Below are positions 1,262 to 44,179 of a stretch of 64,000 nucleotides of DNA, piece by piece. Each line of letters starts with the position of its first letter. Within the stretch, counting starts at the first letter, position 1. Below the pieces are notes generated by a model that searched no databases, was not told the origin of the DNA, and saw only the letters and a list, made by a program, of their open reading frames with translations. Where the stretch lies: the NCBI GenBank assembly GCA_964637315.1, contig CAZWTT010000001.1, positions 6,939 to 70,938 of the forward strand, read 5' to 3'. Source of the stretch: an uncultured Dehalococcoidia bacterium (lineage in GTDB: Bacteria > Chloroflexota > Dehalococcoidia > Lucifugimonadales > UBA2962). The position numbers and the translations under genes are program-made.

Positions 1262-2419
1262 CTAGAGCCAGCGCTTCAGCCAGCGCTTTTCGAACACCAC
1301 CTTGACGACGTGCCAGAGGTGGGACGGGTTTCGCAGCCTGACCTGGGGGGTGGGCTCGGCGTAGAAGTTGCCGCTGCCGTAGCCGGCCCTGCCGCCGCCC
1401 ACTTCTACGAAACATTCGCCGTTACCCGAGAACGCACCCTCCTCACACCGGCCAGTGGCTCTAGCTGCAATGGTCCGGGCCACGGCCCGGCCCTGGTGGC
1501 GGGCGAAGACTCCGGCCTTGGGCAGGGGCAGGCCCATCGACAACGGGATGCTAACCACGTCCCCGATTGCGAAGACATCGGGGTGCTTCGTCTCCATAGA
1601 TTGGCGATCGACGGGCACCCAGCCGCCGGCCTTGGCCAATCCGGCTGCCTGGATAACCGGGGGAACGACGTGGGGTGGTATGTAAACAAGCAGGCCAAAA
1701 GGAACGTCCTCGGCGTTTTCAAACCGGAGGATTCGGCCCGCCGCGTCGACCTCGGTCAACAGGTGCTTGGGGTGGTAGGTGATGCCGCGATCCTCGATTA
1801 GGGTCTTTATACCTGCCGAAACGTCGGGACCGGCGACACCCATGGGCCCGGGCTCGGGAGAGTACAGGGACACGGAGACACTGTCTCTGGCACGGCGCCT
1901 GCGCAGATCGTGGTCGAGGAGCATTGCAGCCGCGTAAGGGGCGGCCGGGCACTTGAACGGCATCCGGGCGACCAGCAAAACCAGTCGGCCTTCGGACAAC
2001 TCCAAGCGGGCGTCGCGGATGGCGGTGGCGCCCTCTAGCGAATACAGGTTGTGGCCGGCCTCGGACAGCCCCGGAACCTGCTCCGGCGCCAGGTCGGCGC
2101 CGAGAGCGACCACCAGGTAGTCGGCTATTAGCTCGGCCCCATCAACCGCCACGGTTCGGCGGTCAGGGTCGATGGTGGTGATCTCGCCTTGGACGACCTC
2201 GATCCCCTTCTTGGTCAGACGCGAGAGATCGCTGACGATGGCCCCGGGCTCGCGCAGTCCCACCTGAAGCCAGATCAGCGAGGGTGAAAAAACGTGCTGA
2301 GGTCCTTTGTCCACCAGGATAATGCGATGCTCTCGGCCCAGCCGGGAGCGAAGCTCGTTGGCCGTTACCAGCCCACCAACACCGCCTCCGAGGATGACAA
2401 CACTTTTCCCAGCCATCAA
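1262..2419 (-). CDS. FAD-dependent pyridine-nucleotide-disulfide oxidoreductase, sulfide:quinone oxidoreductase-like
   Basis: 385-aa ORF with an N-terminal Rossmann motif VVILGGGVGG and a second dinucleotide motif. Length and pattern fit SQR-type flavoproteins. Confidence 0.75.
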   Translation of the reverse strand: MMAGKSVVILGGGVGGLVTANELRSRLGREHRIILVDKGPQHVFSPSLIWLQVGLREPGAIVSDLSRLTKKGIEVVQGEITTIDPDRRTVAVDGAELIADYLVVALGADLAPEQVPGLSEAGHNLYSLEGATAIRDARLELSEGRLVLLVARMPFKCPAAPYAAAMLLDHDLRRRRARDSVSVSLYSPEPGPMGVAGPDVSAGIKTLIEDRGITYHPKHLLTEVDAAGRILRFENAEDVPFGLLVYIPPHVVPPVIQAAGLAKAGGWVPVDRQSMETKHPDVFAIGDVVSIPLSMGLPLPKAGVFARHQGRAVARTIAARATGRCEEGAFSGNGECFVEVGGGRAGYGSGNFYAEPTPQVRLRNPSHLWHVVKVVFEKRWLKRWL

Positions 2420-2484: not shown

Positions 2485-2853
2485 CTAGAATGTCGCCACC
2501 TTGTCGGCCCATCGGGTCCATTCCGCAAACGTGTCCAAGGAGCCTCTACTCACGCCCTGAGCCAGTTTCTCGACGCCGATACCACAGGTGTCCAGACAAC
2601 TTCCTCAGGTACCGACCAACACCCGTTGCCGTAGGGCCACCGTCAGCATACGCTCCACGTTGTAAAAGCCGTTTGGCGTCTTCTGGCCGATCTTACCGCA
2701 GGCGACCGCGCCACCGACGAGGAAGACCCCCACCTCGTCGTCTTCGTTCTTGCTCAGGGCGTTGACCAGGCGCATGCCGTCGTACGAGCGGTTCGTGTCG
2801 TAGGGTGGATCGTTGAGGATGATGGGCGTCTTGCGTCGCGTGTCCATTGTCAC
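2485..2853 (-). CDS. DsrE/YchN-family sulfur-relay-like protein with an in-frame TGA (2605-2607); candidate Sec (UxxC)
   Basis: The ORF stops at TGA but the same frame continues as GSCLDTCGIGVEKLAQGV…WADKVATF to TAG at 2485. SD AAGGAGGAG (2860-2868) lies 6 nt before GTG 2853. Confidence 0.6.
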
Positions 2854-2867
2854 AGCGGTCTCCTCCT

Positions 2868-3275
2868 TCAAGAATCCCAGAGGGCGGCGCCCATGCCCTC
2901 GACGGCCAGCAGGTCATGCATGGGCTGCTCCATGGCGCGGGCGACGTCGGCGTGGGAGATGAGGTCCACCACTTCCTCGTCCTCCATGACTAGGAGCCGC
3001 TTTATCTTAGCGTGGGTCATGAGGCGGGCGGCGTCAGTGATGTCGTCCGTGGGCTTTGCAGAATGAACCGGACTGGACACGATTTCGCCGATCGGGTTGA
3101 CGGCCGGAGCCTGGTGCTCGGCGACGCACCGGACGACTATATCGCGATCGGTGACTATGCCCTTGACCCTCTTTTCGTCGGTCACTATCAGGCATCCGAC
3201 CCCCTCCCTTGCCGTCGTGGAGCCGGCACTTGCCACCGTCTCGCCTTGGTAGACCTTGACGACTATGGCGGACAT
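2868..3275 (-). CDS. CBS-domain pair protein
   Basis: Two CBS-like repeats (…GVGCLIVTDEKRVKGIVTDRDIV… / …MTHAKIKRLLVMEDEEVVDLISHADV…). ATG 3275 is chosen; the long upstream extension of the 267-aa ORF looks non-coding. Confidence 0.7.
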   Translation of the reverse strand: MSAIVVKVYQGETVASAGSTTAREGVGCLIVTDEKRVKGIVTDRDIVVRCVAEHQAPAVNPIGEIVSSPVHSAKPTDDITDAARLMTHAKIKRLLVMEDEEVVDLISHADVARAMEQPMHDLLAVEGMGAALWDS

Positions 3276-3383: not shown

Positions 3384-3774
3384 GTGTGTCGTTTGCATGA
3401 CGCCGATCGGCCGGCCCGGGAGGCGGAGAAATTCATTCTCGATGACATGGCCATGGAGAACCCGGCCGCCGAGGTCACGACCGAGTCTGAGGCCGAGCCG
3501 GCAGACATGGACGGACGAGGCCTCTACCTGAATAATTGTGGTGCCTGCCATGGCCCGGTCGGCGAGAGACAGGACGGCTGGTAGCAGCGCCCACACTTGG
3601 CACCACCCGGATGGCCTGCTGTCCCGTACCGTGCGTGAAGGAGGCAGGAACGTCCCCAACCTGGGGATCACCAGCGGGATGCCGGCCTTTGGGGACCGGC
3701 TGTCCGACGACCAGATCGTGGTCGTGATCGAGTACAGTAGGATTTTCTGGGAGCCCGACCAGCGCGACTTCTAG
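3384..3774 (+). pseudogene. Class I c-type cytochrome, frame-disrupted, with no visible signal peptide
   Basis: CGACH haem motif at 3537-3551 in one frame, which stops at 3582-3584. The conserved continuation HTWHHPDG…MPAFGDRLSDDQIVVVIEY is in the +1 frame from 3592. Confidence 0.6.
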
Positions 3775-27627: not shown

Positions 27628-28555
27628 CGCCAATCCGCTGTCAGAGGTGATGACCGTGACCGGGCCGGTGAGTCCCGAGGACCTTGGCTTTACGCTCATG
27701 CACGAGCACGTGTTCCTGTCCATACTGGCCGACTACCTCGACACTGACCGGGTGCTTGACGACCCGGACTCGGCACGGACCGAGCTCCAGCTATTCAAGG
27801 ACGCCGGGGGTGGCACCGTGGTCGACCAGACCAACAGAGGGCTGGAGCAGAACCCGGCGGGCGTGCGGGAGATGGCGCGGAACACGGGGCTGAACATCGT
27901 GCTCGGGTGTGGCTGGTACCGGGAGCCTTTCTACGAGCCCCGTCTCCACCGTGAGACCACTGACCAGGTTGCCGACGAGATGATCCGCGATATCACCGAC
28001 GGCATCGACGGCACCGGCGTGCGCGCCGGGATCATCGGGGAGTTGGGCGCCCACGAGACCTGGGTGTCCCCGGTCGAAGAAAGAGTACTGCGAGCAGGCG
28101 CCCGCGCACACCTGCAGACCGGGCTGACCGTCACCACGCACGGCCTTTTCGCGCCGGTCGGCCTCGACCAGCTCGACGTGTTATACGAAGAGGGAGTCGA
28201 TGCGAAAAGGGTTGTCGTGGGCCATGCGCACGACTACCCGGCGCATGAGTACCATGCCGAGATCGCCCGGCGGGGGGCCTTCATCTCCTTCGACGGCATG
28301 GGTGAACGCAACTGCTATCTGTTGGAGCGAGACCTGGGCAATATCCGCAAAATAGTGGCCGCCGGCTATATCGACCACCTGCTCCTGTCTCACGACGTAT
28401 GCCTCAAGTCGGCCTACGTCACCAGCGGGGGAGGTGGCTATCAGTTCATCTCGACCAGGTTGTACCCGTATCTAAAGGAAATCGGCCTGACGGAGCAGCA
28501 GTTCGAGCAGATCATGGTGGACAATCCCCGTCGGGCTTTGACGGGCGAAGATTGA
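27620..28555 (+). CDS. Phosphotriesterase-family hydrolase, copy 3 (closest to copy 1)
   Basis: GTG 27620 repeats the 8-nt overlap geometry of the copy 1/2 junction; ATG 27650 is the alternative. LMHEHVFLS, …AGIIGELGAH…, …VVGHAH…. Confidence 0.85.
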   Translation: MNNANPLSEVMTVTGPVSPEDLGFTLMHEHVFLSILADYLDTDRVLDDPDSARTELQLFKDAGGGTVVDQTNRGLEQNPAGVREMARNTGLNIVLGCGWYREPFYEPRLHRETTDQVADEMIRDITDGIDGTGVRAGIIGELGAHETWVSPVEERVLRAGARAHLQTGLTVTTHGLFAPVGLDQLDVLYEEGVDAKRVVVGHAHDYPAHEYHAEIARRGAFISFDGMGERNCYLLERDLGNIRKIVAAGYIDHLLLSHDVCLKSAYVTSGGGGYQFISTRLYPYLKEIGLTEQQFEQIMVDNPRRALTGED

Positions 28556-29877
28556 CTCGGGTCCCCTCGCCCCCCGCACCTCGTCTCATCGCGCTGACGA
28601 CCTTGCTCGTCGCTGTGACATCGGCGGCGCTTGCGTGTACCCAGGCCGCCGGCGCCGACGCCTATGCGACCCCGACGGCCGTATGGGCGTTCACGGTCGT
28701 GCCGGTGGGCACACCCGTCCCAACCCCGACCCCGACCCCGGAGCCGACCCCGGTCAGCAATGAGCCTGACGTTATTCTCGGCCCCGGCTTTGAGCTGGCA
28801 GGTAACCTGTCGCAGGGCCGGTGGGGCCTGACGGCGACGGTGCTTGATGACGGGACGGTGATCGTGGTCGGAGGTCAGGAGCGCAGGAGCTTCTCCCGTA
28901 ACGCACCGATCGAGGCCGAGCTGCTGGCGGCTGGCGGCAACGAGTGGGTAAAGACCGAGCCGATGCAATATGAGCGGAGCTTTCACGTGGCCGCATCCCT
29001 TCCCGACGGGAGGCTGCTGGTCGCCGGTGGCTCCGGCCGCGAGGTGCTTACCGAGGAGGAGGCGCGGGACCGGCCCTTCAGGGGCAGGCAGGATCTTGAC
29101 ACCGCGGAGGTCTTTGACCCCGAAACCGGCGAATGGTCGGAGGTCGCCGAGATGCAGGCGGGCAGGCAAAGCGGCGGGGGAGCGCGGCTCCAGGACGGCC
29201 GCGTACTGGTGGTCGGCGGCGCCTCCGGGATCGACGTGATCGCCGATGCGGAAATGTACGTTCCGGACGAGGACGTGTGGATAGAGATCGCACCCATGGC
29301 GCAGGCCCGCAAGTTCCTCACCGCCACGTTGCTGGTCGATGGGAGGGTGTTGGTGGCGGGTGGGCAGACGCGAGAGACCGCGCTGGCATCAGCCGAGATC
29401 TACGATCCTGCCGACGGTTCATGGACATCCGTGGCCAATCTTGTCCGGCCCAGGTCGGGCCACTCCGCGTCGCTGATGCGTGATGGTCGGGTGGTGGTGG
29501 TCGGGGGGTCGGACCTCGGTGCCTCCAACGTGCTCGGCCCAGAGACCTCCGCCGAGATATACGACCCGGTTGCGGACGAGTGGACCCTGGTGACGGGCGA
29601 CCTGCGGCCGAGGCGGGGCCACGCGTCGGTCACGCTCTCCGACGGCAGGGTGGTGGTGGTCGGGGGCGAGGACCTGGTTGGCCTTTCAATCGCCGCCGTC
29701 GAAGTCTACGACCCCGCCGCCGACAGCTGGAAGATCGCTGCTTCACTCCCGGATGGGCGCAGCCTGCTGGCGGCCGCACTGCTGCCCGACGGCTCGGTTT
29801 TGATAGCCGGGGGAGGCACGGCCTCCGGGTTCGTCGACTTCCCGGACTACACGCTGCGGTTCCGAGTCCCGAACTAG
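28552..29877 (+). CDS. Kelch-repeat beta-propeller protein with a signal peptide and lipobox-like Cys
   Basis: TTG 28552 overlaps the PTE-3 stop. LLVAVTSAALAC, then a Thr/Pro linker, then repeated …AE(I/V)YDP…W…DGRV(L/V)V(V/A)GG units. Confidence 0.75.
   Translation: MTRVPSPPAPRLIALTTLLVAVTSAALACTQAAGADAYATPTAVWAFTVVPVGTPVPTPTPTPEPTPVSNEPDVILGPGFELAGNLSQGRWGLTATVLDDGTVIVVGGQERRSFSRNAPIEAELLAAGGNEWVKTEPMQYERSFHVAASLPDGRLLVAGGSGREVLTEEEARDRPFRGRQDLDTAEVFDPETGEWSEVAEMQAGRQSGGGARLQDGRVLVVGGASGIDVIADAEMYVPDEDVWIEIAPMAQARKFLTATLLVDGRVLVAGGQTRETALASAEIYDPADGSWTSVANLVRPRSGHSASLMRDGRVVVVGGSDLGASNVLGPETSAEIYDPVADEWTLVTGDLRPRRGHASVTLSDGRVVVVGGEDLVGLSIAAVEVYDPAADSWKIAASLPDGRSLLAAALLPDGSVLIAGGGTASGFVDFPDYTLRFRVPN
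29100..29171 (+). repeat. 72-nt direct repeat copy B (native Kelch-repeat coding sequence)
   Basis: Matches 23951-24022. Here it is in frame and encodes TAEVFDPETGEWSEVAEMQAGRQ, a normal Kelch blade. Confidence 0.9.
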
Positions 29878-35505: not shown

Positions 35506-35707
35506 GGGCTCCTCCAGATCGCCGAAATTGGCCGAAAGCGTATCACAGGATGGGCCACCGACCCCTGTTTAGTCGGGCGCGGACGAGTCGCGCCCTGAAT
35601 GGGTTAGACTACGCACGCTCACGAAGTCTGTTCCCAAAAAGATTAATGGGATGGTCCGTTCCCGACCCTTTACAGTGGGCGGCAGGCACACACACCAAGA
35701 GGTGGAT

Positions 35708-36907
35708 ATGCGCAGGCTCGCGCCCCACGCGTCGTTACTGATACTGGCCCTTGCTCTGACGGTCGCCGCCTCATGCGCCGGCGACGCGGCGGCTCCTTCA
35801 CCATCGTCAGGTGGTGAGGTAGCCGCGGAAACCGGAGGCGCCAGCGAGACCGCCAAGGTAACAACCGCCGCCGGGCCCGGCAAGTTCTCAGTCACCGACA
35901 AGATGGTCGACGCTCGCGGTTACCACGCCGCCGTCAAAATGGCGGACGGCAGGGTGATGGCAATCGCCGGTAAGAGTCGGGGAGGCGCGTCGGCCTGGAA
36001 GGCGTCGTCCATCGAGGCCACCGCCATCTACGATCCGACCACCGGCAAGTGGACCGACTCGGCCCTCCTGTCGACAGTGCGGGAGCATCCAACAGGCCAC
36101 CTCCTGCTCGACGGCCGGGTTATCGTGATCGGTGGCTCCGCCCTGCGCCAGTTGCCGTTGGCCAGCGTCGAGGTCTACGACGTGGCCGCCGATTCTTGGA
36201 CCGAGGTCGCTCCCATGTCGATCGGGCGGTGGCGACACAGCTCGGTGATGTTCGAAGACGGCCGCATCATGGTGGTCGCCGGTGAGACGGTGGACCTCGT
36301 GCTCGTTGCAGGGGCGGAGATCTACGATCCGACAACCGACACGTGGACGCCCGCCGGATCGCTTACCGAGGCCCGCGCACTGCACACCGTGACGTTGCTT
36401 CAGGACGGCCGGGTTCTGGCGGTGGGTGGGGGCAAGCGCGACTCACCTTACATTAAGACGCCGGAGATCTACGACCCGGCCACCGGCGAGTGGACTCAGG
36501 GGGCGCCGACCCAGGTCGCGCACTCGGCGCATGCAGCCACGCTGCTTCCCGACGGCCGGGTGCTGATCACGGGCGGCAAGGGGAAAGTGACCCTGACGGA
36601 GATCTATGACCCCGAGGCCGACGCCTGGACGACCCTGGGTCCAATGTCCGAGTGGCGCGCCGAGCACGCCGCCGTCCTGCTTGCCGACGGCCGCGTCATG
36701 GTCACCGGAGGCATTGGCAAGGTTGCGACATCCGATATTTTTGATCCGGCGACCGATACTTGGTCCACTGGAGCCAACATGGTCGAGACGCGCTACGCAC
36801 ACTCGATGACGCTGCTCGACGATGGCAGGGTCCTCGTCATCGGCGGTAACTCCACCGACGGCGACCAGCGGGGAGTGACCACGGAGGTCGAGGTGTGGGA
36901 GCCTTAG
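35708..36907 (+). CDS. Kelch-repeat beta-propeller protein with a signal peptide and lipobox-like Cys
   Basis: SD AAGAGGTGG before ATG 35708. LLILALALTVAASC, then six or more …(I/V)YDP…W…DGRV(L/M)V(I/T)GG blades. Confidence 0.75.
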   Translation: MRRLAPHASLLILALALTVAASCAGDAAAPSPSSGGEVAAETGGASETAKVTTAAGPGKFSVTDKMVDARGYHAAVKMADGRVMAIAGKSRGGASAWKASSIEATAIYDPTTGKWTDSALLSTVREHPTGHLLLDGRVIVIGGSALRQLPLASVEVYDVAADSWTEVAPMSIGRWRHSSVMFEDGRIMVVAGETVDLVLVAGAEIYDPTTDTWTPAGSLTEARALHTVTLLQDGRVLAVGGGKRDSPYIKTPEIYDPATGEWTQGAPTQVAHSAHAATLLPDGRVLITGGKGKVTLTEIYDPEADAWTTLGPMSEWRAEHAAVLLADGRVMVTGGIGKVATSDIFDPATDTWSTGANMVETRYAHSMTLLDDGRVLVIGGNSTDGDQRGVTTEVEVWEP

Positions 36908-39179: not shown

Positions 39180-41483
39180 ATGACAACCACCTACGAGCCA
39201 AACCAGGTTCTTTCGAATCAGTCCTTCAACGTGGTCGGGACCCGGCCGATTCGGCACGACGGCGCCGACAAGGTCACGGGCCGGGCCAAGTACGGCGCCG
39301 ACTACACGGCCGTGGGATTGCTACACGCCAAGACGTTGCGCAGTCCCCACGCCCACGCTCGAATCAAGTCGGTCGACACGTCCAAGGCCGAGGCGCTTGC
39401 CGGGGTAAGAGCCGTTGTTACGTCAAAGGACTTCCCGCCAGCCAAGGACACCGCCGACTTCGGTCTGGGCGGACAGCCGATGGACAGGTTCCGGGGCAAT
39501 CTGCTGGCTGGCGACAAGGCGCTTTACCGGGGCCATGCGATCGCCGCAGTGGCGGCCACCAACCCTCATATAGCGGAAGAGGCGGTCGGGTTGATCGAGG
39601 TGGACTACGAAGTGCTGCCAGCCATACTAACGGCTCCGGAAGGCATGGCCGACGACGCTCCCATCCTCATACCCGACCTGACCACCCAGGAGTTCGGCAA
39701 CGACACCGGTCGCAACTCCAACATCGCCGACCATTTCCAGCACAAGTTGGGCGACATTGACAAGGGTTTCGCCGACGCCGACGTGGTGGTGGAACGCACC
39801 TTTGACACCAAGACCGTGCACCAGGGCTACATCGAGCCTCACAACGTGACGGCGCTTTGGAACGACGACGATCGTATCCACGTGTACTGCAGTACCCAGG
39901 GCTCGTTCACGGTTCGGGCGGCGATTTCCGAAGCCTTGGCGATCCCCGTCTCCAAGATCAGATGTACGCCGATGGAGATCGGCGGTGGCTTCGGGGGGAA
40001 GATCGCTGTTTACAGTGAACCGGTTGCCGCGATGCTCTCCAAAAAGGCAGGCCACAGGCCGGTGAAGATGGTCATGTCAAGGTCCGAGGTCTTCGAGGGC
40101 ACGGGCCCAACCAGCGGCTCGCACATGATTATCAAGATGGGCGCCACCAAGGACGGCAAGATAGTCGCAGCCCTGGCCGACCTGCAAATGGAGGCGGGTG
40201 CATACCCCGGCTCTCCCGTGGGAGCGGCGGCCATGTGTATCTTTTCCGCCTACGACGTGGACAACGTCGTGATCGACGGCTACGACGTCGTGGTCAACAA
40301 GCCCAAGGCGGGCGCCTACCGGGCACCCGGGGCGCCCAACGCGGCGTTCGCGGCCGAGCAAGTGGTCGACGAACTGGCGCAGAGGTTGGGTATCGACCCC
40401 TTGGAGCTTCGCCTGAAAAACGCGGCCAAAGAGGGGGTCCGCCGTCCGGACGGACCCGTCCACCCGCGTATCGGCTGTGTCGAGGTGCTGGAGGCCATGC
40501 GCGACCATGACCACTACAGTTCACCCATCGCCCCCGCTAGGCGCGGCGGCAATACCGGGCGCGGGGTGGCCGTTGGGTACTGGTTTAACATCGGCTTCGC
40601 CTCCGCGTGCAACATCGCCGTCAACAACGACGGCACCGTCAACCTGATAGAAGGCTCCACCGACATCGGCGGAAGCAGGGCTTCCATCGCTATGCAGGCG
40701 GCCGAGGTGCTCGGAATCGCGGCTGAGGAGGTCATTCCCCAGGTCGTGGACACCGACTCCATCGGATACACAGCCATCACCGGCGGCAGCCGGACTACCT
40801 TCGCCACCGGTTGGGCGGCCTACGAGGCGGCCCAAGACGTAAAGCGGCAGGTCGTCGAGCGAGCGGCCCAGATCTGGGGCGTGGAGCCCGACTCGGTGGA
40901 GATGCAAGACGGGGTCGTTCGCTCCAAGACTGACACCGAGCTGAACATGACGTTCAAGGAACTGGCTGGGCAGATCAACGACACCGGAGGACCCATCGTC
41001 GGTCGCGCGGCGGTCGACCCCGCCGGGGCCGGTGGTTCCTACTCCGGCCAGATCGTCGACGTCGAGGTGGATCCGGAGACGGGCAAGACCGACGTGTTGC
41101 GATTCACCATTGTCCAGGATGCGGGCAAGGCCATCCACCCCGCCTACGTCGAGGGCCAGATGCAAGGCGCCGCCGCCCAGGGCATCGGTTGGGCGCTGAA
41201 CGAGGAGTACTATTACTCCGAGGACGGCAAAATGGACAATGCCAGCTTCCTCGACTATCGCATGCCGACCACCCTCGACCTGCCCATGATTGATACGGTC
41301 ATCGTCGAGGTCGCCAACCCGGGCCATCCGTTCGGGGTCAGAGGCGTAGGCGAGGCCCCCATCGTCTCGCCGCAAGCCGCGGTGGCCAACGCCATCGCGG
41401 ACGCCACGGGCCTGCGCATGGCCTACCTTCCGATCAACTCCACGGCAATAATGGAGGCGAGCTGGGTCGAAGGTGCGAGCTAG
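39180..41483 (+). CDS. Molybdopterin-binding large subunit, xanthine-dehydrogenase/aldehyde-oxidase family, paralogue 1
   Basis: 767 aa; …RPIRHDGADKVTGRAKYGADY…, …GGGFGGK…, …AGAYRAPGAPN…, …VRGVGEAPI…. Confidence 0.9.
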   Translation: MTTTYEPNQVLSNQSFNVVGTRPIRHDGADKVTGRAKYGADYTAVGLLHAKTLRSPHAHARIKSVDTSKAEALAGVRAVVTSKDFPPAKDTADFGLGGQPMDRFRGNLLAGDKALYRGHAIAAVAATNPHIAEEAVGLIEVDYEVLPAILTAPEGMADDAPILIPDLTTQEFGNDTGRNSNIADHFQHKLGDIDKGFADADVVVERTFDTKTVHQGYIEPHNVTALWNDDDRIHVYCSTQGSFTVRAAISEALAIPVSKIRCTPMEIGGGFGGKIAVYSEPVAAMLSKKAGHRPVKMVMSRSEVFEGTGPTSGSHMIIKMGATKDGKIVAALADLQMEAGAYPGSPVGAAAMCIFSAYDVDNVVIDGYDVVVNKPKAGAYRAPGAPNAAFAAEQVVDELAQRLGIDPLELRLKNAAKEGVRRPDGPVHPRIGCVEVLEAMRDHDHYSSPIAPARRGGNTGRGVAVGYWFNIGFASACNIAVNNDGTVNLIEGSTDIGGSRASIAMQAAEVLGIAAEEVIPQVVDTDSIGYTAITGGSRTTFATGWAAYEAAQDVKRQVVERAAQIWGVEPDSVEMQDGVVRSKTDTELNMTFKELAGQINDTGGPIVGRAAVDPAGAGGSYSGQIVDVEVDPETGKTDVLRFTIVQDAGKAIHPAYVEGQMQGAAAQGIGWALNEEYYYSEDGKMDNASFLDYRMPTTLDLPMIDTVIVEVANPGHPFGVRGVGEAPIVSPQAAVANAIADATGLRMAYLPINSTAIMEASWVEGAS

Positions 41484-41519: not shown

Positions 41520-41876
41520 ATGGCAACGGTCTTCATACCATCACTCATGCAGGATCTGACGGATGGTGAAAAGACCGTCGAGGTGCCCGGTGGCACGGTG
41601 CGTGAGATCGTCAACGGCCTGGAGGGCAAATACCCTGGAGTGAAGGACCGCCTGATGGACGGCTTTCGTCTGAAGGGAAACATTAACGTTGCGGTAGATG
41701 GCGAGATCAGCCCCGTAGGTGTCCTCGGCGAGGTCGGAGAGAGTAGCGAGGTGCATTTTCTGCCCGCGATAGCTGGCGGGTCACTGCGTGATAGCGAATG
41801 CCAGCCCGTATCGACCATCAGTCTTTTCAGGCGGTCGCGGGCCGGCGCGGAGCATTACTACGGGGAGAAGCTATGA
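41520..41876 (+). CDS. ThiS/MoaD/CysO-family beta-grasp sulfur-carrier protein with a 31-codon extension after Gly-Gly
   Basis: MATVFIPSLMQDLTDGEKTVEV…KYPGVKDRLMDG…VHFLPAIAGG (GG at 41775-41780). The frame stays open to TGA 41874-41876, which overlaps the next ATG. Confidence 0.7.
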   Translation: MATVFIPSLMQDLTDGEKTVEVPGGTVREIVNGLEGKYPGVKDRLMDGFRLKGNINVAVDGEISPVGVLGEVGESSEVHFLPAIAGGSLRDSECQPVSTISLFRRSRAGAEHYYGEKL

Positions 41877-44179
41877 CCACTATTTACGAGCCGAACGTCG
41901 TACTGGCCACCGACGAATACAACGTCGTCGGGACTAGGCCCATCCGTCCCGACGGCGCGGACAAGGTGACCGGCAAGGCCAAGTACGGTGCCGACTACAA
42001 CGCCACCGGGCTACTGTACGCCAAGGTGCTGCACAGTCCGCATGCCCATGCCCGCATCAAGTCGATAGACACCTCCAAGGCGGAGGCGTTTCTCGGCGTG
42101 GCGGCGGTGGTGACCGGCGCCGACATGCCCACCACTAGGGAGTCCGACCCGGCCGACTTCGGCCTCGGCCCTCAGCCGATGAAGTACCTGCGCAACAACG
42201 CCATCGCCAGGGGCAAGGTCCTCTATAGCGGCCATGCGGTGGCCGCCGTTGCTGCCGTCAACACCCACGTGGCGGAAGAGGCTATGGGTCTGATCGAGGT
42301 GGATTACGAAGTCTTGCCGTCCGTCCTGACGGTGCAGGATGCGATGAAGGACGACGCGCCGGTTCTGCACGACGATCTGTTCACCACCGAGTTCGGCAAT
42401 AAGACCGACCGTAACACCAATATCGCCAACCACTTCCAACACAAGATGGGCGATCTGGAGAAGGGCTTCGCCGAGGCCGACGTGGTAGTGGAACGCGAGT
42501 TCGACACCGCCACCGTCCACCAGGGCTACATAGAGCCCATGAACGTCACCGCGCTGTGGAACGACGACGACCGGGTGCACGTGTGGATGAGCACTCAGGG
42601 CCCGTTCCAGTTCCGCGACGCCATCGCGATAGCCCTGGAACTGCCCCAGTCGCAGGTTAAGGTGACGCCGATGGAGATCGGCGGCGGATTCGGCGGCAAG
42701 TTCCCCCTGTACCACGAGATCGCTGCGGTCCTGCTGTCCAAGAAGGCGGGTCGCCCGGTCAAGATCGCGATGACTCGCAAAGAGGCCTTCGAGAGTTCGG
42801 GGCCGACCTCTGGCTCGCATATGCGCATGAAGATCGGTGCGACCAAAGAGGGTAAAATCACCGCTGCCGAGACCGAGTTGATCTTCGAAGCGGGGGGCTT
42901 CCCCGGTTCGCCGGTGGACGCCGGGGCGATGTGTGTGTTCTCGGCCTATGACATTCCCAATGTCGTTATCGACGGCTACGACGTCGTCGTCAACAAGCCG
43001 AAGACAGCGGCCTATCGGGCTCCCGGCGCGACGCATGCGGCGATGGCGGCCGAGACGGTGGTGGACGAGTTGTGTGAAAAGCTTGGTCTCGACGTTCTCG
43101 ACTTCAGGCTGCAAAACTGCGCCAAGGAGGGCACACGACGAGCGGACGGCCCGGTGAACCCAAAGATCGGCGGTTTGGAGACCCTGGAGGCGGTCAAGGC
43201 CCACGCGCACTGGAACGCTCCTCTCACCCCCGCCAAGCGCGGCGGCAAGGTTGGTAGGGGAATCGCCCTCGGCTACTGGTTCAATGCCGGTATGCAGTCG
43301 GCCGCCACCATCAGCGTCAACGGTGATGGGACCATCAACCTGGTTGAGGGCTGTCCCGACATCGGTGGTAGCAGGGCCTCCATCGCCATGCAGGCGGCTG
43401 AGGTGCTCGGTATCAGCGCCGAGGAGGTCAACCCGCAGGTAGTGGACACCGACTCCATCGGTTTCACCTTCGGCACCGGCGGCTCGCGCACCACGTTTGC
43501 GACGGGCTGGGCGGCCTATGAGGCGGCCAACGACGTCAAGCGTCAACTGGTCGATAGGGCGGCCAAGATCTGGGGCGTCGACCCCGATTCGGTGGAGATG
43601 GCGGAAGGTATGGTCCGTTCCAAGACCGACACCGAGCTGAACATGACATTTAAGGCCCTTTCGGCCCAGCTCAACGACACCGGCGGCCCGATCGTCGGTC
43701 GCGGTGCCGTGAATCCGTCCGGCGTGGGCGGCGCCTTAGCCGCAACCGTAGCCGATGTAGAAGTAGACCCGGAGACGGGCAAGGTCGACTTGCTTCGTTT
43801 CACCATCGCTCAGGACGCCGGCAAGGCCGTCCACCCCGCCTATGTCGAGGGACAGCTACAGGGAGGAGCCGCGCAGGGCATTGGGTGGGCTCTGAACGAG
43901 GAGTACTATTACTCCGAGGACGGTCGCTTGGACAACCCCACGTTCCTGGACTACCGTATTCCGACTGCCCTCGACTTGCCGATGATCGACACCATCGTCG
44001 TCGAGGTGCCCAACCCCGGCCATCCGTACGGTGTCCGCGGCGTGGGTGAGGTCTGCATCGTGCCGCCACCGGCGGCGCTGGCAAACGCCATCCACGACGC
44101 CGTCGGAGTGCGCATGGACGTACTTCCAATGAACCCCGCAGCGGTCATGAGCGCCCTGTGGAAGCAGGGTGGCTCCTAG
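41873..44179 (+). CDS. Molybdopterin-binding large subunit, paralogue 2
   Basis: ATG 41873 gives MTTIYEPNVV…, parallel to paralogue 1 (MTTTYEPNQV…), and the two are colinear throughout. …TAAYRAPGATH…, …VRGVGEVCI…. Confidence 0.9.
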   Translation: MTTIYEPNVVLATDEYNVVGTRPIRPDGADKVTGKAKYGADYNATGLLYAKVLHSPHAHARIKSIDTSKAEAFLGVAAVVTGADMPTTRESDPADFGLGPQPMKYLRNNAIARGKVLYSGHAVAAVAAVNTHVAEEAMGLIEVDYEVLPSVLTVQDAMKDDAPVLHDDLFTTEFGNKTDRNTNIANHFQHKMGDLEKGFAEADVVVEREFDTATVHQGYIEPMNVTALWNDDDRVHVWMSTQGPFQFRDAIAIALELPQSQVKVTPMEIGGGFGGKFPLYHEIAAVLLSKKAGRPVKIAMTRKEAFESSGPTSGSHMRMKIGATKEGKITAAETELIFEAGGFPGSPVDAGAMCVFSAYDIPNVVIDGYDVVVNKPKTAAYRAPGATHAAMAAETVVDELCEKLGLDVLDFRLQNCAKEGTRRADGPVNPKIGGLETLEAVKAHAHWNAPLTPAKRGGKVGRGIALGYWFNAGMQSAATISVNGDGTINLVEGCPDIGGSRASIAMQAAEVLGISAEEVNPQVVDTDSIGFTFGTGGSRTTFATGWAAYEAANDVKRQLVDRAAKIWGVDPDSVEMAEGMVRSKTDTELNMTFKALSAQLNDTGGPIVGRGAVNPSGVGGALAATVADVEVDPETGKVDLLRFTIAQDAGKAVHPAYVEGQLQGGAAQGIGWALNEEYYYSEDGRLDNPTFLDYRIPTALDLPMIDTIVVEVPNPGHPYGVRGVGEVCIVPPPAALANAIHDAVGVRMDVLPMNPAAVMSALWKQGGS

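What the first reader, a model, noticed from the sequence alone, without database searches (positions are those of the whole stretch)
2485..2871. DsrE-like gene with an in-frame TGA at the first Cys of its CxxC motif: candidate selenoprotein (UxxC)
**What the sequence shows**
- The minus-strand ORF ends at TGA (2605-2607).
- The same frame runs 39 more codons to TAG (2485-2487).
- That extension reads GSCLDTCGIGVEKLAQGVSRGSLDTFAEWTRWADKVATF, the expected C-terminal half of a DsrE/YchN-type protein.
- The junction is …RVLVGT-[TGA]-G-S-C-LD…. Family members normally have C-G-x-C here, so the TGA replaces the first redox Cys, giving U-x-x-C.

**Downstream hairpin**
- Thirteen nt after the TGA there is an imperfect hairpin: GACACC / GGCGUC with one A-C mismatch.
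- Its 9-nt loop is UGUGGUAUC. The loop starts 18 nt after UGA and has G in its second position, which fits the bacterial SECIS geometry as I remember it.

**Context**
- The gene sits between an SQR-like flavoprotein and a CBS protein, a sulfur-redox setting.
- From memory, DsrE-like Sec proteins were reported in marine metagenome selenoproteome surveys. I cannot verify that here.
Basis: partly seen in the sequence, partly recalled or inferred. Interest (0 to 1): 0.75.

Follow-up and report, generated by a model that had tools for sequence, protein, structure and literature searches.

The report
Selenocysteine-containing YchN/DsrE-like sulfur-relay gene
A small sulfur-carrier gene in a marine Chloroflexota-type genome uses an in-frame TGA to put selenocysteine in place of its active-site cysteine; this is a real but already known kind of selenoprotein that gene callers cut short.

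Summary
The minus-strand gene (best model 2485-2853, GTG start) has an in-frame TGA at 2605-2607. Thirty-nine more in-frame codons complete a full-length DsrE/YchN-type domain.

- **Cys/Sec column:** Homologues have an invariant C-G-x-C there.
- **Other TGA forms:** Fourteen other distinct sequences carry TGA at exactly that column with the same conserved extension. Four come from Dehalococcoidia MAGs and two from more distant clades.
- **Selection:** The extension is under purifying selection (dN/dS about 0.16).
- **Hairpin:** A hairpin whose loop starts 18 nt after the UGA is kept in all 13 close TGA forms, and the four-fold sites in its arms are frozen. It is mostly absent from Cys forms.
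- **Sequence reliability:** The TGA is identical in contigs from four independent marine metagenome studies. TGA ends about 30% of the other genes in the window.

Caveats:
- No selA, selB, selD or tRNA-Sec could be looked for beyond the DNA held.
- The window's own hairpin has an A·C mismatch and is not above chance by itself.
- The window's protein carries nine lineage-specific changes at conserved sites.

"DsrE-like, UxxC" selenoproteins have been published since 2004-2005, so this is a new member of a known kind.

The parts
2485..2853 (-). Complete coding sequence of the YchN/DsrE-like selenoprotein: 122 codons plus TAG, GTG start, Sec at codon 83
   Evidence: Searches give the sequence and frame. 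Pfam PF02635 at 54.1 bits, residues 9-120; a profile of the family hits E. coli YchN (1JX7) at E 7e-29; the database holds only the truncated 82-aa product (P0006).
2605..2607 (-). In-frame UGA, read as selenocysteine (U83), first residue of the U-G-S-C motif
   Evidence: It aligns with the invariant Cys of C-G-x-C in homologues and with the cysteine at position 78 of DsrE chain 2HY5_A. The same TGA is found in 14 other distinct orthologues. It is confirmed in 4 independent metagenome assemblies.
2596..2598 (-). UGU codon for Cys86, the second (resolving) residue of the UxxC motif
   Evidence: Invariant C86 in 48 aligned sequences.
2572..2592 (-). Apical SECIS-like hairpin: arms GACACC and GGCGUC with one A·C mismatch, and the 9-nt loop UGUGGUAUC (2578-2586)
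   Evidence: The orthologous GACGCC-N9-GGYGUC hairpin is kept in 13 of 13 close Sec forms. Four-fold sites in the arms are invariant. Twelve of 12 non-window forms pass the strict bSECIS test. Mean pairing is 5.9 of 6 in 10 Sec forms against 2.5 of 6 in 120 Cys forms.
2556..2609 (-). Extended predicted stem-loop in the window's copy. Its base pairs CCUGAG (which includes the UGA) with CUCAGG.
   Evidence: MFE -26.4 kcal/mol, z -1.9. The lower helices are not conserved across orthologues, so this part is a prediction only.
2485..2604 (-). The 39-codon C-terminal extension after the UGA plus the TAG stop; it supplies the C-terminal third of the DsrE fold
   Evidence: dN/dS is 0.16 among Sec forms, with dS about 1.1. 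The ...WTRWADKVxxF* ending is conserved in all forms.
2868..3275 (-). Upstream CBS-domain gene. Its TGA stop lies 14 nt before the selenoprotein start, so the two are probably co-transcribed.
   Evidence: 135-aa CBS protein called on identical contigs.
1262..2416 (-). Downstream type III sulfide:quinone reductase-like flavoprotein, conserved partner of the gene in many lineages
   Evidence: NF049943 at 213 bits, below the 525-bit cut-off for the selenoprotein subtype, and there is no in-frame TGA. The same neighbour occurs in L001, L005, L009, L093, L149 and L172. Metatranscriptome contigs cover 1262-1963.

Best explanation
The gene encodes a 122-residue YchN-type member of the DsrE/DsrF sulfur-relay superfamily. 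Its active-site cysteine, the first Cys of an invariant C-G-x-C, is replaced by selenocysteine, giving U-G-S-C.

**Shown:**
- The UGA sits at the Cys column.
- The downstream 39 codons are translated and selected as protein in this clade.
- A hairpin 18 nt downstream is conserved beyond what the protein sequence requires.

**Inferred:**
- During translation the hairpin binds SelB·GTP·Sec-tRNA(Sec). This recodes the UGA as Sec, as in other bacterial selenoprotein genes.
- The product acts as a carrier or reductant of sulfane sulfur, possibly also of selenium. The selenolate attacks a persulfide or polysulfide. The likely source is the co-transcribed type III SQR-like flavoprotein, or in relatives a NifS-like desulfurase. 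Cys86 then resolves the adduct through a selenenylsulfide.
- In relatives an ArsR/BigR-type sensor controls the module; in the window a CBS-domain protein sits upstream.

The window's copy is the most diverged member of the clade and has a weakened apical stem.
For: - **Full-length fold.** The DsrE domain is complete only if the UGA is read through. The closest solved relative is E. coli YchN, with C-K-T-C at the same place. The U column aligns with the cysteine at position 78 of DsrE chain 2HY5_A.
- **Sec/Cys pairing.** 125 Cys codons against 16 TGA at one column. There are 15 distinct TGA forms in three clades, four of them in Dehalococcoidia MAGs.
- **Translation of the tail.** dN/dS is 0.16 downstream and 0.11 upstream, with dS about 1.1.
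- **RNA element.** Twelve of 12 non-window close forms pass the published bSECIS constraints (loop 3-9 nt, stem at least 4 bp, G in the first two loop positions, 16-37 nt spacing, at most -7.5 kcal/mol; PMC13188914). The background rate is 8.8%.
- **Frozen synonymous sites.** The third positions of Ala+6, Gly+10 and Val+11 have the three lowest entropies (0, 0.39, 0) of 52 comparable columns.
- **Covariation.** One outer pair covaries: C-G in 4 sequences, G-C in 3, U·G in 1.
- **Distant forms.** L183 and L184 have different hairpins at the same distance.
- **Cys forms.** They average 2.5 of 6 pairs. Three of the five nearest have amino-acid changes in the 3' arm that are never seen in Sec forms.
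- **Not an error and not a reassigned code.** Four independent assemblies agree. TGA ends 19 other genes in the window.
- **Published precedent.** The DsrE-like UxxC family is published. Dehalococcoidia MAGs with 46-49 selenoproteins are listed in BSepDB.
Against: - No selA, selB, selD or tRNA-Sec was found in the window or in any Sec-form locus. Only 64 kb plus flanks of at most 10 kb could be searched.
- Rfam gives no SECIS hit.
- The core stem hardly varies, so classical covariation is not significant: 98 of 500 shuffles reach the observed score.
- The window's hairpin has an A·C mismatch and fails the strict test.
- The window's protein has nine unique substitutions at otherwise conserved positions. 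G19, E21, N25, D48 and R90 are shared even with E. coli YchN. A neighbouring cytochrome c gene is a pseudogene. This particular copy may therefore be under relaxed or altered selection.
- No transcript contig covers the gene.
- The biochemical role is inferred from family and neighbours only. YchN itself is uncharacterised.
Confidence: 0.85

Rival explanations
1. The family is a selenoprotein family, but the window's own copy is decaying or has changed function. Selection on the active site and on the SECIS is relaxed in this lineage. The UGA may now be decoded poorly, leaving mostly an 82-aa fragment.
For: - Nine lineage-specific substitutions at conserved sites, against 0-3 in most relatives (6 in L016).
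- The longest branch in the tree.
- A89T is the very change that creates the A·C mismatch in the stem.
- The strict bSECIS test fails only for the window.
- The adjacent cytochrome c gene is a pseudogene, and the cation-efflux and DUF3179 genes of the syntenic L001 are missing.
Against: - The 122-codon frame is intact, with no extra stop or frameshift.
- dN/dS of the window against the others is still 0.17-0.20.
- The loop G, the 18-nt spacing and five of six stem pairs are kept. Window-specific changes lengthen the lower helix, for a total of -26.4 kcal/mol.
- The sequence is fixed and identical in several independent marine metagenomes.
- R90C adds a third Cys next to the motif, which could be adaptive.
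Confidence: 0.15
2. The UGA is read through without selenocysteine: a near-cognate Cys- or Trp-tRNA, or a suppressor, inserts a standard amino acid. The hairpin merely slows termination.
For: Sec machinery was not found in the DNA available. Hairpins after UGA are common in this GC-rich DNA (26% under relaxed rules).
Against: - The recoded position is exactly the redox or relay Cys, the signature of Sec/Cys pairs.
- TGA is kept in 15 diverged sequences, although a single base change to TGC or TGT would give Cys directly. Some nested lineages did make that change.
- The hairpin matches the SelB-type consensus in geometry and in the loop G.
- Relatives of this class are rich in selenoproteins.
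Confidence: 0.07
3. The TGA is a true stop. The gene makes an 82-aa protein and the downstream similarity is a relic, or the TGA is a sequencing or assembly error.
For: Gene callers and public databases hold only the 82-aa product.
Against: - An 82-aa product lacks the active-site motif and a third of the fold.
- The tail is under purifying selection across lineages whose synonymous sites are near saturation.
- The TGA is identical in four independent assemblies and present in 14 other sequences.
Confidence: 0.03

Closest known systems
DsrE-like selenoprotein family (PF02635, UxxC). Published by Kryukov & Gladyshev 2004 as cited in PMC13188914 (example WP_014524487.1), with Sargasso Sea sequences in PMC1088965 and Desulfovibrio vulgaris in PMC1794560.
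   Same: Same Pfam family, same UxxC redox motif, a Sec/Cys pair with Cys homologues, and a bacterial SECIS-like hairpin just after the UGA.
   Different: The present clade is Dehalococcoidia-like and marine, is held in the databases only as 82-aa truncated proteins, and matched no dedicated NCBIfam model.
E. coli YchN (PDB 1JX7), a DsrE-superfamily protein of unknown function
   Same: Full-length similarity (profile E 7e-29). Same length class. C-x-x-C at the same place (CKTC against UGSC). The PYG-E...N and D motifs are conserved in the family.
   Different: YchN has Cys, not Sec. The window's copy has lost G19, E21, N25, D48 and R90, which YchN and the rest of the clade share. The E. coli gene context was not compared.
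DsrE of DsrEFH (PDB 2HY5) and TusD of TusBCD (PDB 2D1P), persulfide relay proteins
   Same: Same fold family. The U column aligns with the cysteine at position 78 of DsrE chain 2HY5_A. From established knowledge, that cysteine carries the persulfide.
   Different: The similarity is remote (E 0.01-0.013). TIGR03012 (TusD/DsrE) scores 13.5 bits against a cut-off of 89. The protein is a single stand-alone subunit with no DsrF/H or TusB/C partners nearby, and it has a second Cys (CxxC) that DsrE lacks.
YedF (TIGR03527), a SelD-associated protein with a SirA/TusA-like domain fused to a DsrE-like domain that carries CGXC (PMC5322559)
   Same: A DsrE-like domain with a C-G-x-C motif. Cys forms of the present family sit next to Sec-type selD in L099 and L149.
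   Different: There is no SirA-like domain and no NCBIfam hit to TIGR03527 at E up to 1. The window has no selD nearby.

Membership tests
Bacterial selenoprotein gene (SelB/SECIS-dependent UGA recoding) | In-frame UGA aligned with a conserved Cys in homologues | tested here: met
   C83 is invariant in 47 full-length relatives. At that column there are 125 TGC/TGT and 16 TGA codons in 142 loci.
Bacterial selenoprotein gene (SelB/SECIS-dependent UGA recoding) | Sequence after the UGA is conserved as protein (purifying selection) up to a shared stop | tested here: met
   All forms have a 39-codon tail ending ...WTRWADKVxxF*. dN/dS is 0.16 with dS about 1.1.
Bacterial selenoprotein gene (SelB/SECIS-dependent UGA recoding) | Stem-loop after the UGA meeting the bSECIS consensus: loop 3-9 nt, upper stem 4-16 bp, G in the first two loop positions, 16-37 nt spacing, MFE at most -7.5 kcal/mol (PMC13188914) | tested here: inconclusive
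   Twelve of 12 other close Sec forms pass a strict implementation; the null rate is 8.8%. The window's own hairpin has the right loop (9 nt), G at position 2 and 18-nt spacing. An A·C mismatch leaves only 2 contiguous pairs next to the loop. It passes only when mismatches are allowed (-11.0 kcal/mol), and that rule has a 26% null rate.
Bacterial selenoprotein gene (SelB/SECIS-dependent UGA recoding) | RNA structure conserved beyond the coding constraint | tested here: met
   Four-fold sites in the stem arms have the lowest entropies of 52 columns. One outer pair covaries. Cys forms average 2.5 of 6 pairs against 5.9 of 6 in Sec forms.
Bacterial selenoprotein gene (SelB/SECIS-dependent UGA recoding) | selA, selB, selC (tRNA-Sec) and selD present in the same genome | not testable with these tools
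   None was found in the 64-kb window or in any Sec-form locus, by tblastn with the E. coli proteins and by ARAGORN. The literature reports selenoprotein-rich Dehalococcoidia.
Bacterial selenoprotein gene (SelB/SECIS-dependent UGA recoding) | UGA is otherwise a stop in this organism (no global reassignment) | tested here: met
   Stop usage over 63 predicted genes is TAG 31, TGA 20, TAA 12.
DsrE/DsrF-like family PF02635, YchN subgroup | Pfam match above the gathering score over the full domain | tested here: met
   54.1 bits against 22.7; residues 9-120 on profile positions 5-116 of 116.
DsrE/DsrF-like family PF02635, YchN subgroup | Full-length similarity to YchN with CxxC at the same position | tested here: met
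   The profile against 1JX7 gives E 7e-29, query 7-122 on chain 2-117, with CKTC aligned to C/U-G-S-C.
Published DsrE-like UxxC selenoprotein family | PF02635 domain with a UxxC motif | tested here: met
   family definition.
Published DsrE-like UxxC selenoprotein family | Orthology to the reference sequences (WP_014524487.1, AACY01486889) | not tested
   The reference sequences could not be retrieved with the tools at hand.
TusD/DsrE proper (TIGR03012) | Score above the NCBIfam cut-off | tested here: not met
   13.5 bits against a cut-off of 89.25.
YedF selenium-metabolism protein (TIGR03527) | SirA-like plus DsrE-like two-domain architecture and a model match | tested here: not met
   The protein has a single domain, and there is no NCBIfam hit at E up to 1 apart from TusD.

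The most novel reading that the evidence does not exclude
The YchN-type C/U-G-x-C proteins may be carriers of selenium rather than, or as well as, sulfur.

They recur next to a set of genes that could together form an unrecognised selenide/persulfide handling and delivery module:
- ArsR/BigR-type sensors
- type III SQR-like flavoproteins
- NifS/selenocysteine-lyase-like enzymes
- SAM methyltransferases
- in Firmicutes, Sec-type selD and the selenoprotein TsoY

On this reading the Sec forms of marine Dehalococcoidia-like bacteria are its most reactive version. This would give the long-uncharacterised YchN a function.
Probability: 0.15. Interest if true: 0.6.

Novelty: new member of a known kind. 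Interest (0 to 1): 0.3.

Why it matters
- **Annotation.** The gene and at least 14 relatives are stored in public databases as 82-aa (or 76- and 84-aa) truncated 'DsrE' proteins. The true products are about 120 residues with Sec at the active site.
- **Selenium use.** The finding adds a selenoprotein to a marine Dehalococcoidia-like lineage. It also gives a clean example of Sec/Cys turnover: Cys forms nest among Sec forms and still carry relic hairpins.
- **Function.** Sec sits at the position equivalent to the persulfide-carrying Cys of DsrE/TusD, and the gene lies in an operon with an SQR-like enzyme. This points to a testable role in sulfane-sulfur or selenium trafficking for the uncharacterised YchN subgroup.

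It does not change what is known about how selenoproteins are made.

Tried and rejected
- **Rfam.** Scans at gathering threshold over the window and at E up to 10 over 2400-2950 gave no SECIS family, only chance hits.
- **tRNA search.** ARAGORN found no tRNA in the window and no tRNA-Sec in 1.57 Mb of fetched loci.
- **Sec machinery.** tblastn with E. coli SelA, SelB and SelD found selD only beside Cys forms (L099, L149). A hit in L093 proved to be ThiL.
- **Other selenoproteins.** A scan for other in-frame-TGA genes in the window found only adjacent genes that share a frame.
- **The SQR-like neighbour.** It is not the selenoprotein subtype. It has no in-frame TGA, only 4 codons follow its stop, and it scores below the cut-off.
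- **Covariation statistics.** Not significant on the 8-bp helix, because the core is invariant. I therefore relied on synonymous-site conservation.
- **Representative search.** It returned mostly fragments. Two candidates, P0198 and P0209, were followed up and confirmed as TGA forms.
- **Metatranscriptomes.** Contigs covered only the SQR-like gene.
- **Literature.** Searches for YchN and TsoY gave nothing useful on function.

Full report
**Observation.**
On the minus strand an ORF ends at TGA 2605-2607. The same frame continues for 39 codons (GSCLDTCGIGVEKLAQGVSRGSLDTFAEWTRWADKVATF) to TAG 2485-2487. The most likely start is GTG 2853-2851, 8 nt after a GGAGG and 14 nt after the stop of the upstream CBS gene. 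This gives a 122-codon gene, and the public protein collection holds only its first 82 residues (P0006). With the TGA read as Cys, Pfam DsrE (PF02635) matches residues 9-120 over profile positions 5-116 of 116 (54.1 bits, cut-off 22.7). The tail is therefore the missing third of the domain and not random sequence.

**The Sec/Cys column.**
- Forty-seven full-length relatives have invariant C83, G84 and C86 (C-G-x-C) at the junction.
- Five other 82-aa proteins in the first search all end one residue before that Cys. On their contigs each ends in TGA followed in frame by G-[STA]-C-[LI]-D-A-R-G... and 39 codons to ...WTRWADKVxxF-stop.
- Scans of metagenome and GTDB genome contigs added more. Among 142 loci the codon at this column is TGC or TGT in 125, TGA in 16 and AGC in 1.
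- Three further top hits missed by my first pattern are also TGA forms.
- Two more distant truncated representatives (84 and 76 aa) also proved to be TGA-G-S-C forms with conserved tails.
- In all there are 15 distinct TGA sequences. Thirteen form one close clade that includes four Dehalococcoidia MAGs.

**Not an error, not a reassigned codon, not a dead tail.**
- Contigs from four runs of four separate marine or seawater metagenome studies cover the TGA with no differences.
- The exact 82-aa product was called on nine other contigs with the same neighbours.
- TGA ends 19 of the other 62 predicted genes in the window.
- Among the 13 close Sec forms, median dN/dS is 0.11 upstream of the UGA and 0.16 downstream, with dS about 1.1. 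For the window against the others it is 0.20 and 0.17.

**The hairpin.**
In the window the 21-nt apical hairpin GACACC-UGUGGUAUC-GGCGUC (2572-2592) has one A·C mismatch. By itself it is weak evidence:
- The 71-nt fold has z = -1.9.
- It fails a strict version of the published consensus.
- A mismatch-tolerant version is satisfied by 26% of all UGA triplets in this 63% GC window.

The comparison is what counts:
- All 12 other close Sec forms have GACGCC-N9-GGYGUC at the same place and pass the strict test, against 8.8% of background UGAs.
- In the 13 Sec forms the third positions of the Ala, Gly and Val codons that build the arms read C in 12 of 12, C in 12 and U in 1 (U still pairs), and C in 13 of 13. 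Their entropies are 0, 0.39 and 0. These are the three lowest of 52 comparable columns. Neighbouring four-fold sites in the loop have entropies of 1.2-1.8.
- The pair just outside the core changes between C-G (4), G-C (3) and U·G (1), with amino-acid changes on both sides. It is unpaired in 5 sequences.
- Because the core never varies, the formal covariation score is not significant (98 of 500 shuffles). RNAalifold recovers only the 6-bp core and a weak outer helix.
- Ten Sec forms average 5.9 of 6 core pairs, against 2.5 of 6 for 120 Cys forms.
- Of the five nearest Cys forms, two keep the hairpin. Three have replacements in the 3' arm (V to E, G to R, V to I) that no Sec form shows.
- A rough NJ tree without support values places these Cys forms among the Sec forms, which fits Sec-to-Cys replacement leaving relic hairpins.
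- The two distant Sec forms have different sequences but again a strong hairpin. In L183 the stem is 5 bp, the loop is CGGGCU and the spacing is 20 nt.

**What the protein is.**
- A profile of the family hits E. coli YchN (PDB 1JX7) at E 7e-29 over the whole length, with CKTC at the motif. More remotely it hits DsrE (2HY5_A) and TusD (2D1P_A). The Sec column aligns with the cysteine at position 78 of DsrE chain 2HY5_A. From established knowledge of DsrEFH and TusBCD, that is the persulfide-carrying residue.
- The NCBIfam TusD/DsrE model is far below its cut-off and no other model hits. The protein is therefore a YchN-type stand-alone member and not DsrE or TusD proper.

**Context.**
- In the window the order is CBS-domain gene, selenoprotein gene, type III SQR-like flavoprotein, all on the minus strand.
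- In relatives the recurrent neighbours are an ArsR/BigR-type regulator, a SHOCT protein, a SAM methyltransferase, a NifS-like cysteine desulfurase and the same SQR-like flavoprotein.
- L184 has an ArsR-rhodanese fusion. L183 has ArsR, a thioredoxin and an ArsP permease.
- The most likely role is therefore a carrier or reductant of sulfane sulfur made by the flavoprotein or a desulfurase. Sec would be the attacking nucleophile and Cys86 the resolving residue. This step is inference.

**Caveats specific to the window.**
- Its protein has nine substitutions at positions that at least 16 of the 17 other clade members share: G19D, E21N, N25D, R42G, D48G, A89T, R90C, E96K and L109F. Most relatives have 0-3 such changes, and L016 has 6.
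- Five of the nine positions are conserved as far as E. coli YchN.
- A89T is the base change that breaks the stem pair.
- Next to the operon, a cytochrome c gene is a pseudogene, and genes present in the syntenic L001 are missing.
- The frame is intact and still looks selected. Even so, this copy may be changing function or slowly decaying.
- No transcript contig covered it. Only the SQR-like gene was seen in metatranscriptome contigs.

**Sec machinery.**
None was found in the window or in any Sec-form locus, and the tools give no access to the rest of these genomes. The literature supports plausibility only. Chloroflexi have selenoproteins, and two Dehalococcoidia MAGs with 46 and 49 selenoproteins are listed in BSepDB.

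**Comparison with what is known.**
'DsrE-like protein, PF02635, UxxC' has been a listed prokaryotic selenoprotein family since the first selenoproteome surveys. Examples include Desulfovibrio vulgaris and two Sargasso Sea sequences with a predicted SECIS. The finding is therefore a new member, possibly a new clade, of a known kind. I could not align it with the published examples.

**Verdict.**
The result is useful for annotation and as a lead on YchN function, but it is not surprising to a specialist. Interest is 0.3.

Noticed in passing
window 3384-3774 (+): Degraded cytochrome c gene. The CGACH heme motif is kept, but a TAG replaces a Gln codon (GW*QQR). A deletion and frameshift removes about 15 residues relative to the intact 155-aa orthologue in L001. 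The same split (74-aa and 63-aa ORFs) is seen on independent contigs L177-L179. The cation-efflux and DUF3179 genes of L001 are absent here.
   Followed up: partly
L099 7568-12258 (Neobacillus sp. SM06): Gene row selD, tsoY, Cys-form YchN-like gene, SAM methyltransferase, NifS-like desulfurase. selD has an in-frame TGA (GSG*ACK). tsoY has an in-frame TGA (WGMV*AFVG) and matches NF047643, 'selenoprotein TsoY'. This links the family to selenium metabolism.
   Followed up: partly
L149 1520-7051 (Bacillota MAG): Gene row Sec-type selD (GSG*ACK), NifS-like desulfurase, Cys-form YchN-like gene, type III SQR-like flavoprotein, methionine gamma-lyase-like enzyme.
   Followed up: partly
L183 371-745 and L184 1751-2101: Two more distant TGA forms of the family (TGA-GSCCEARG... 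and TGA-GSCLDARGLRD...). Their downstream hairpins differ in sequence from those of the main clade. The neighbours are ArsR, thioredoxin and an ArsP permease in L183, and an ArsR-rhodanese fusion in L184.
   Followed up: partly
L096 1221-1583 (Chloroflexi MAG, protein P0012): A close relative has ...TLSS-GACLD: a one-residue deletion and/or Ser (AGC) at the Sec/Cys column. It is neither a Cys form nor a Sec form.
   Followed up: no
window 2485-2853 (-), residues 19, 21, 25, 42, 48, 89, 90, 96, 109: The window's protein has nine lineage-specific substitutions at conserved sites. R90C turns the motif into U-G-S-C-L-D-T-C. Window-specific codons (AGU Ser, AAA Lys, CAG Gln) lengthen the lower part of the predicted stem, which may compensate for the A·C mismatch.
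   Followed up: partly
window 39180-41483 and 41798-44179 (+); 28399-29877 and 35651-36907 (+): Two paralogous large subunits of the xanthine dehydrogenase / CO dehydrogenase family of molybdenum hydroxylases, and two Kelch-repeat beta-propeller proteins.
   Followed up: no
window 1262-1963 (-): Metatranscriptome contigs from four runs in three studies (hydrothermal vent, seawater and an unspecified metagenome) match the SQR-like gene exactly. None covers the selenoprotein gene, but contigs show presence only.
   Followed up: partly
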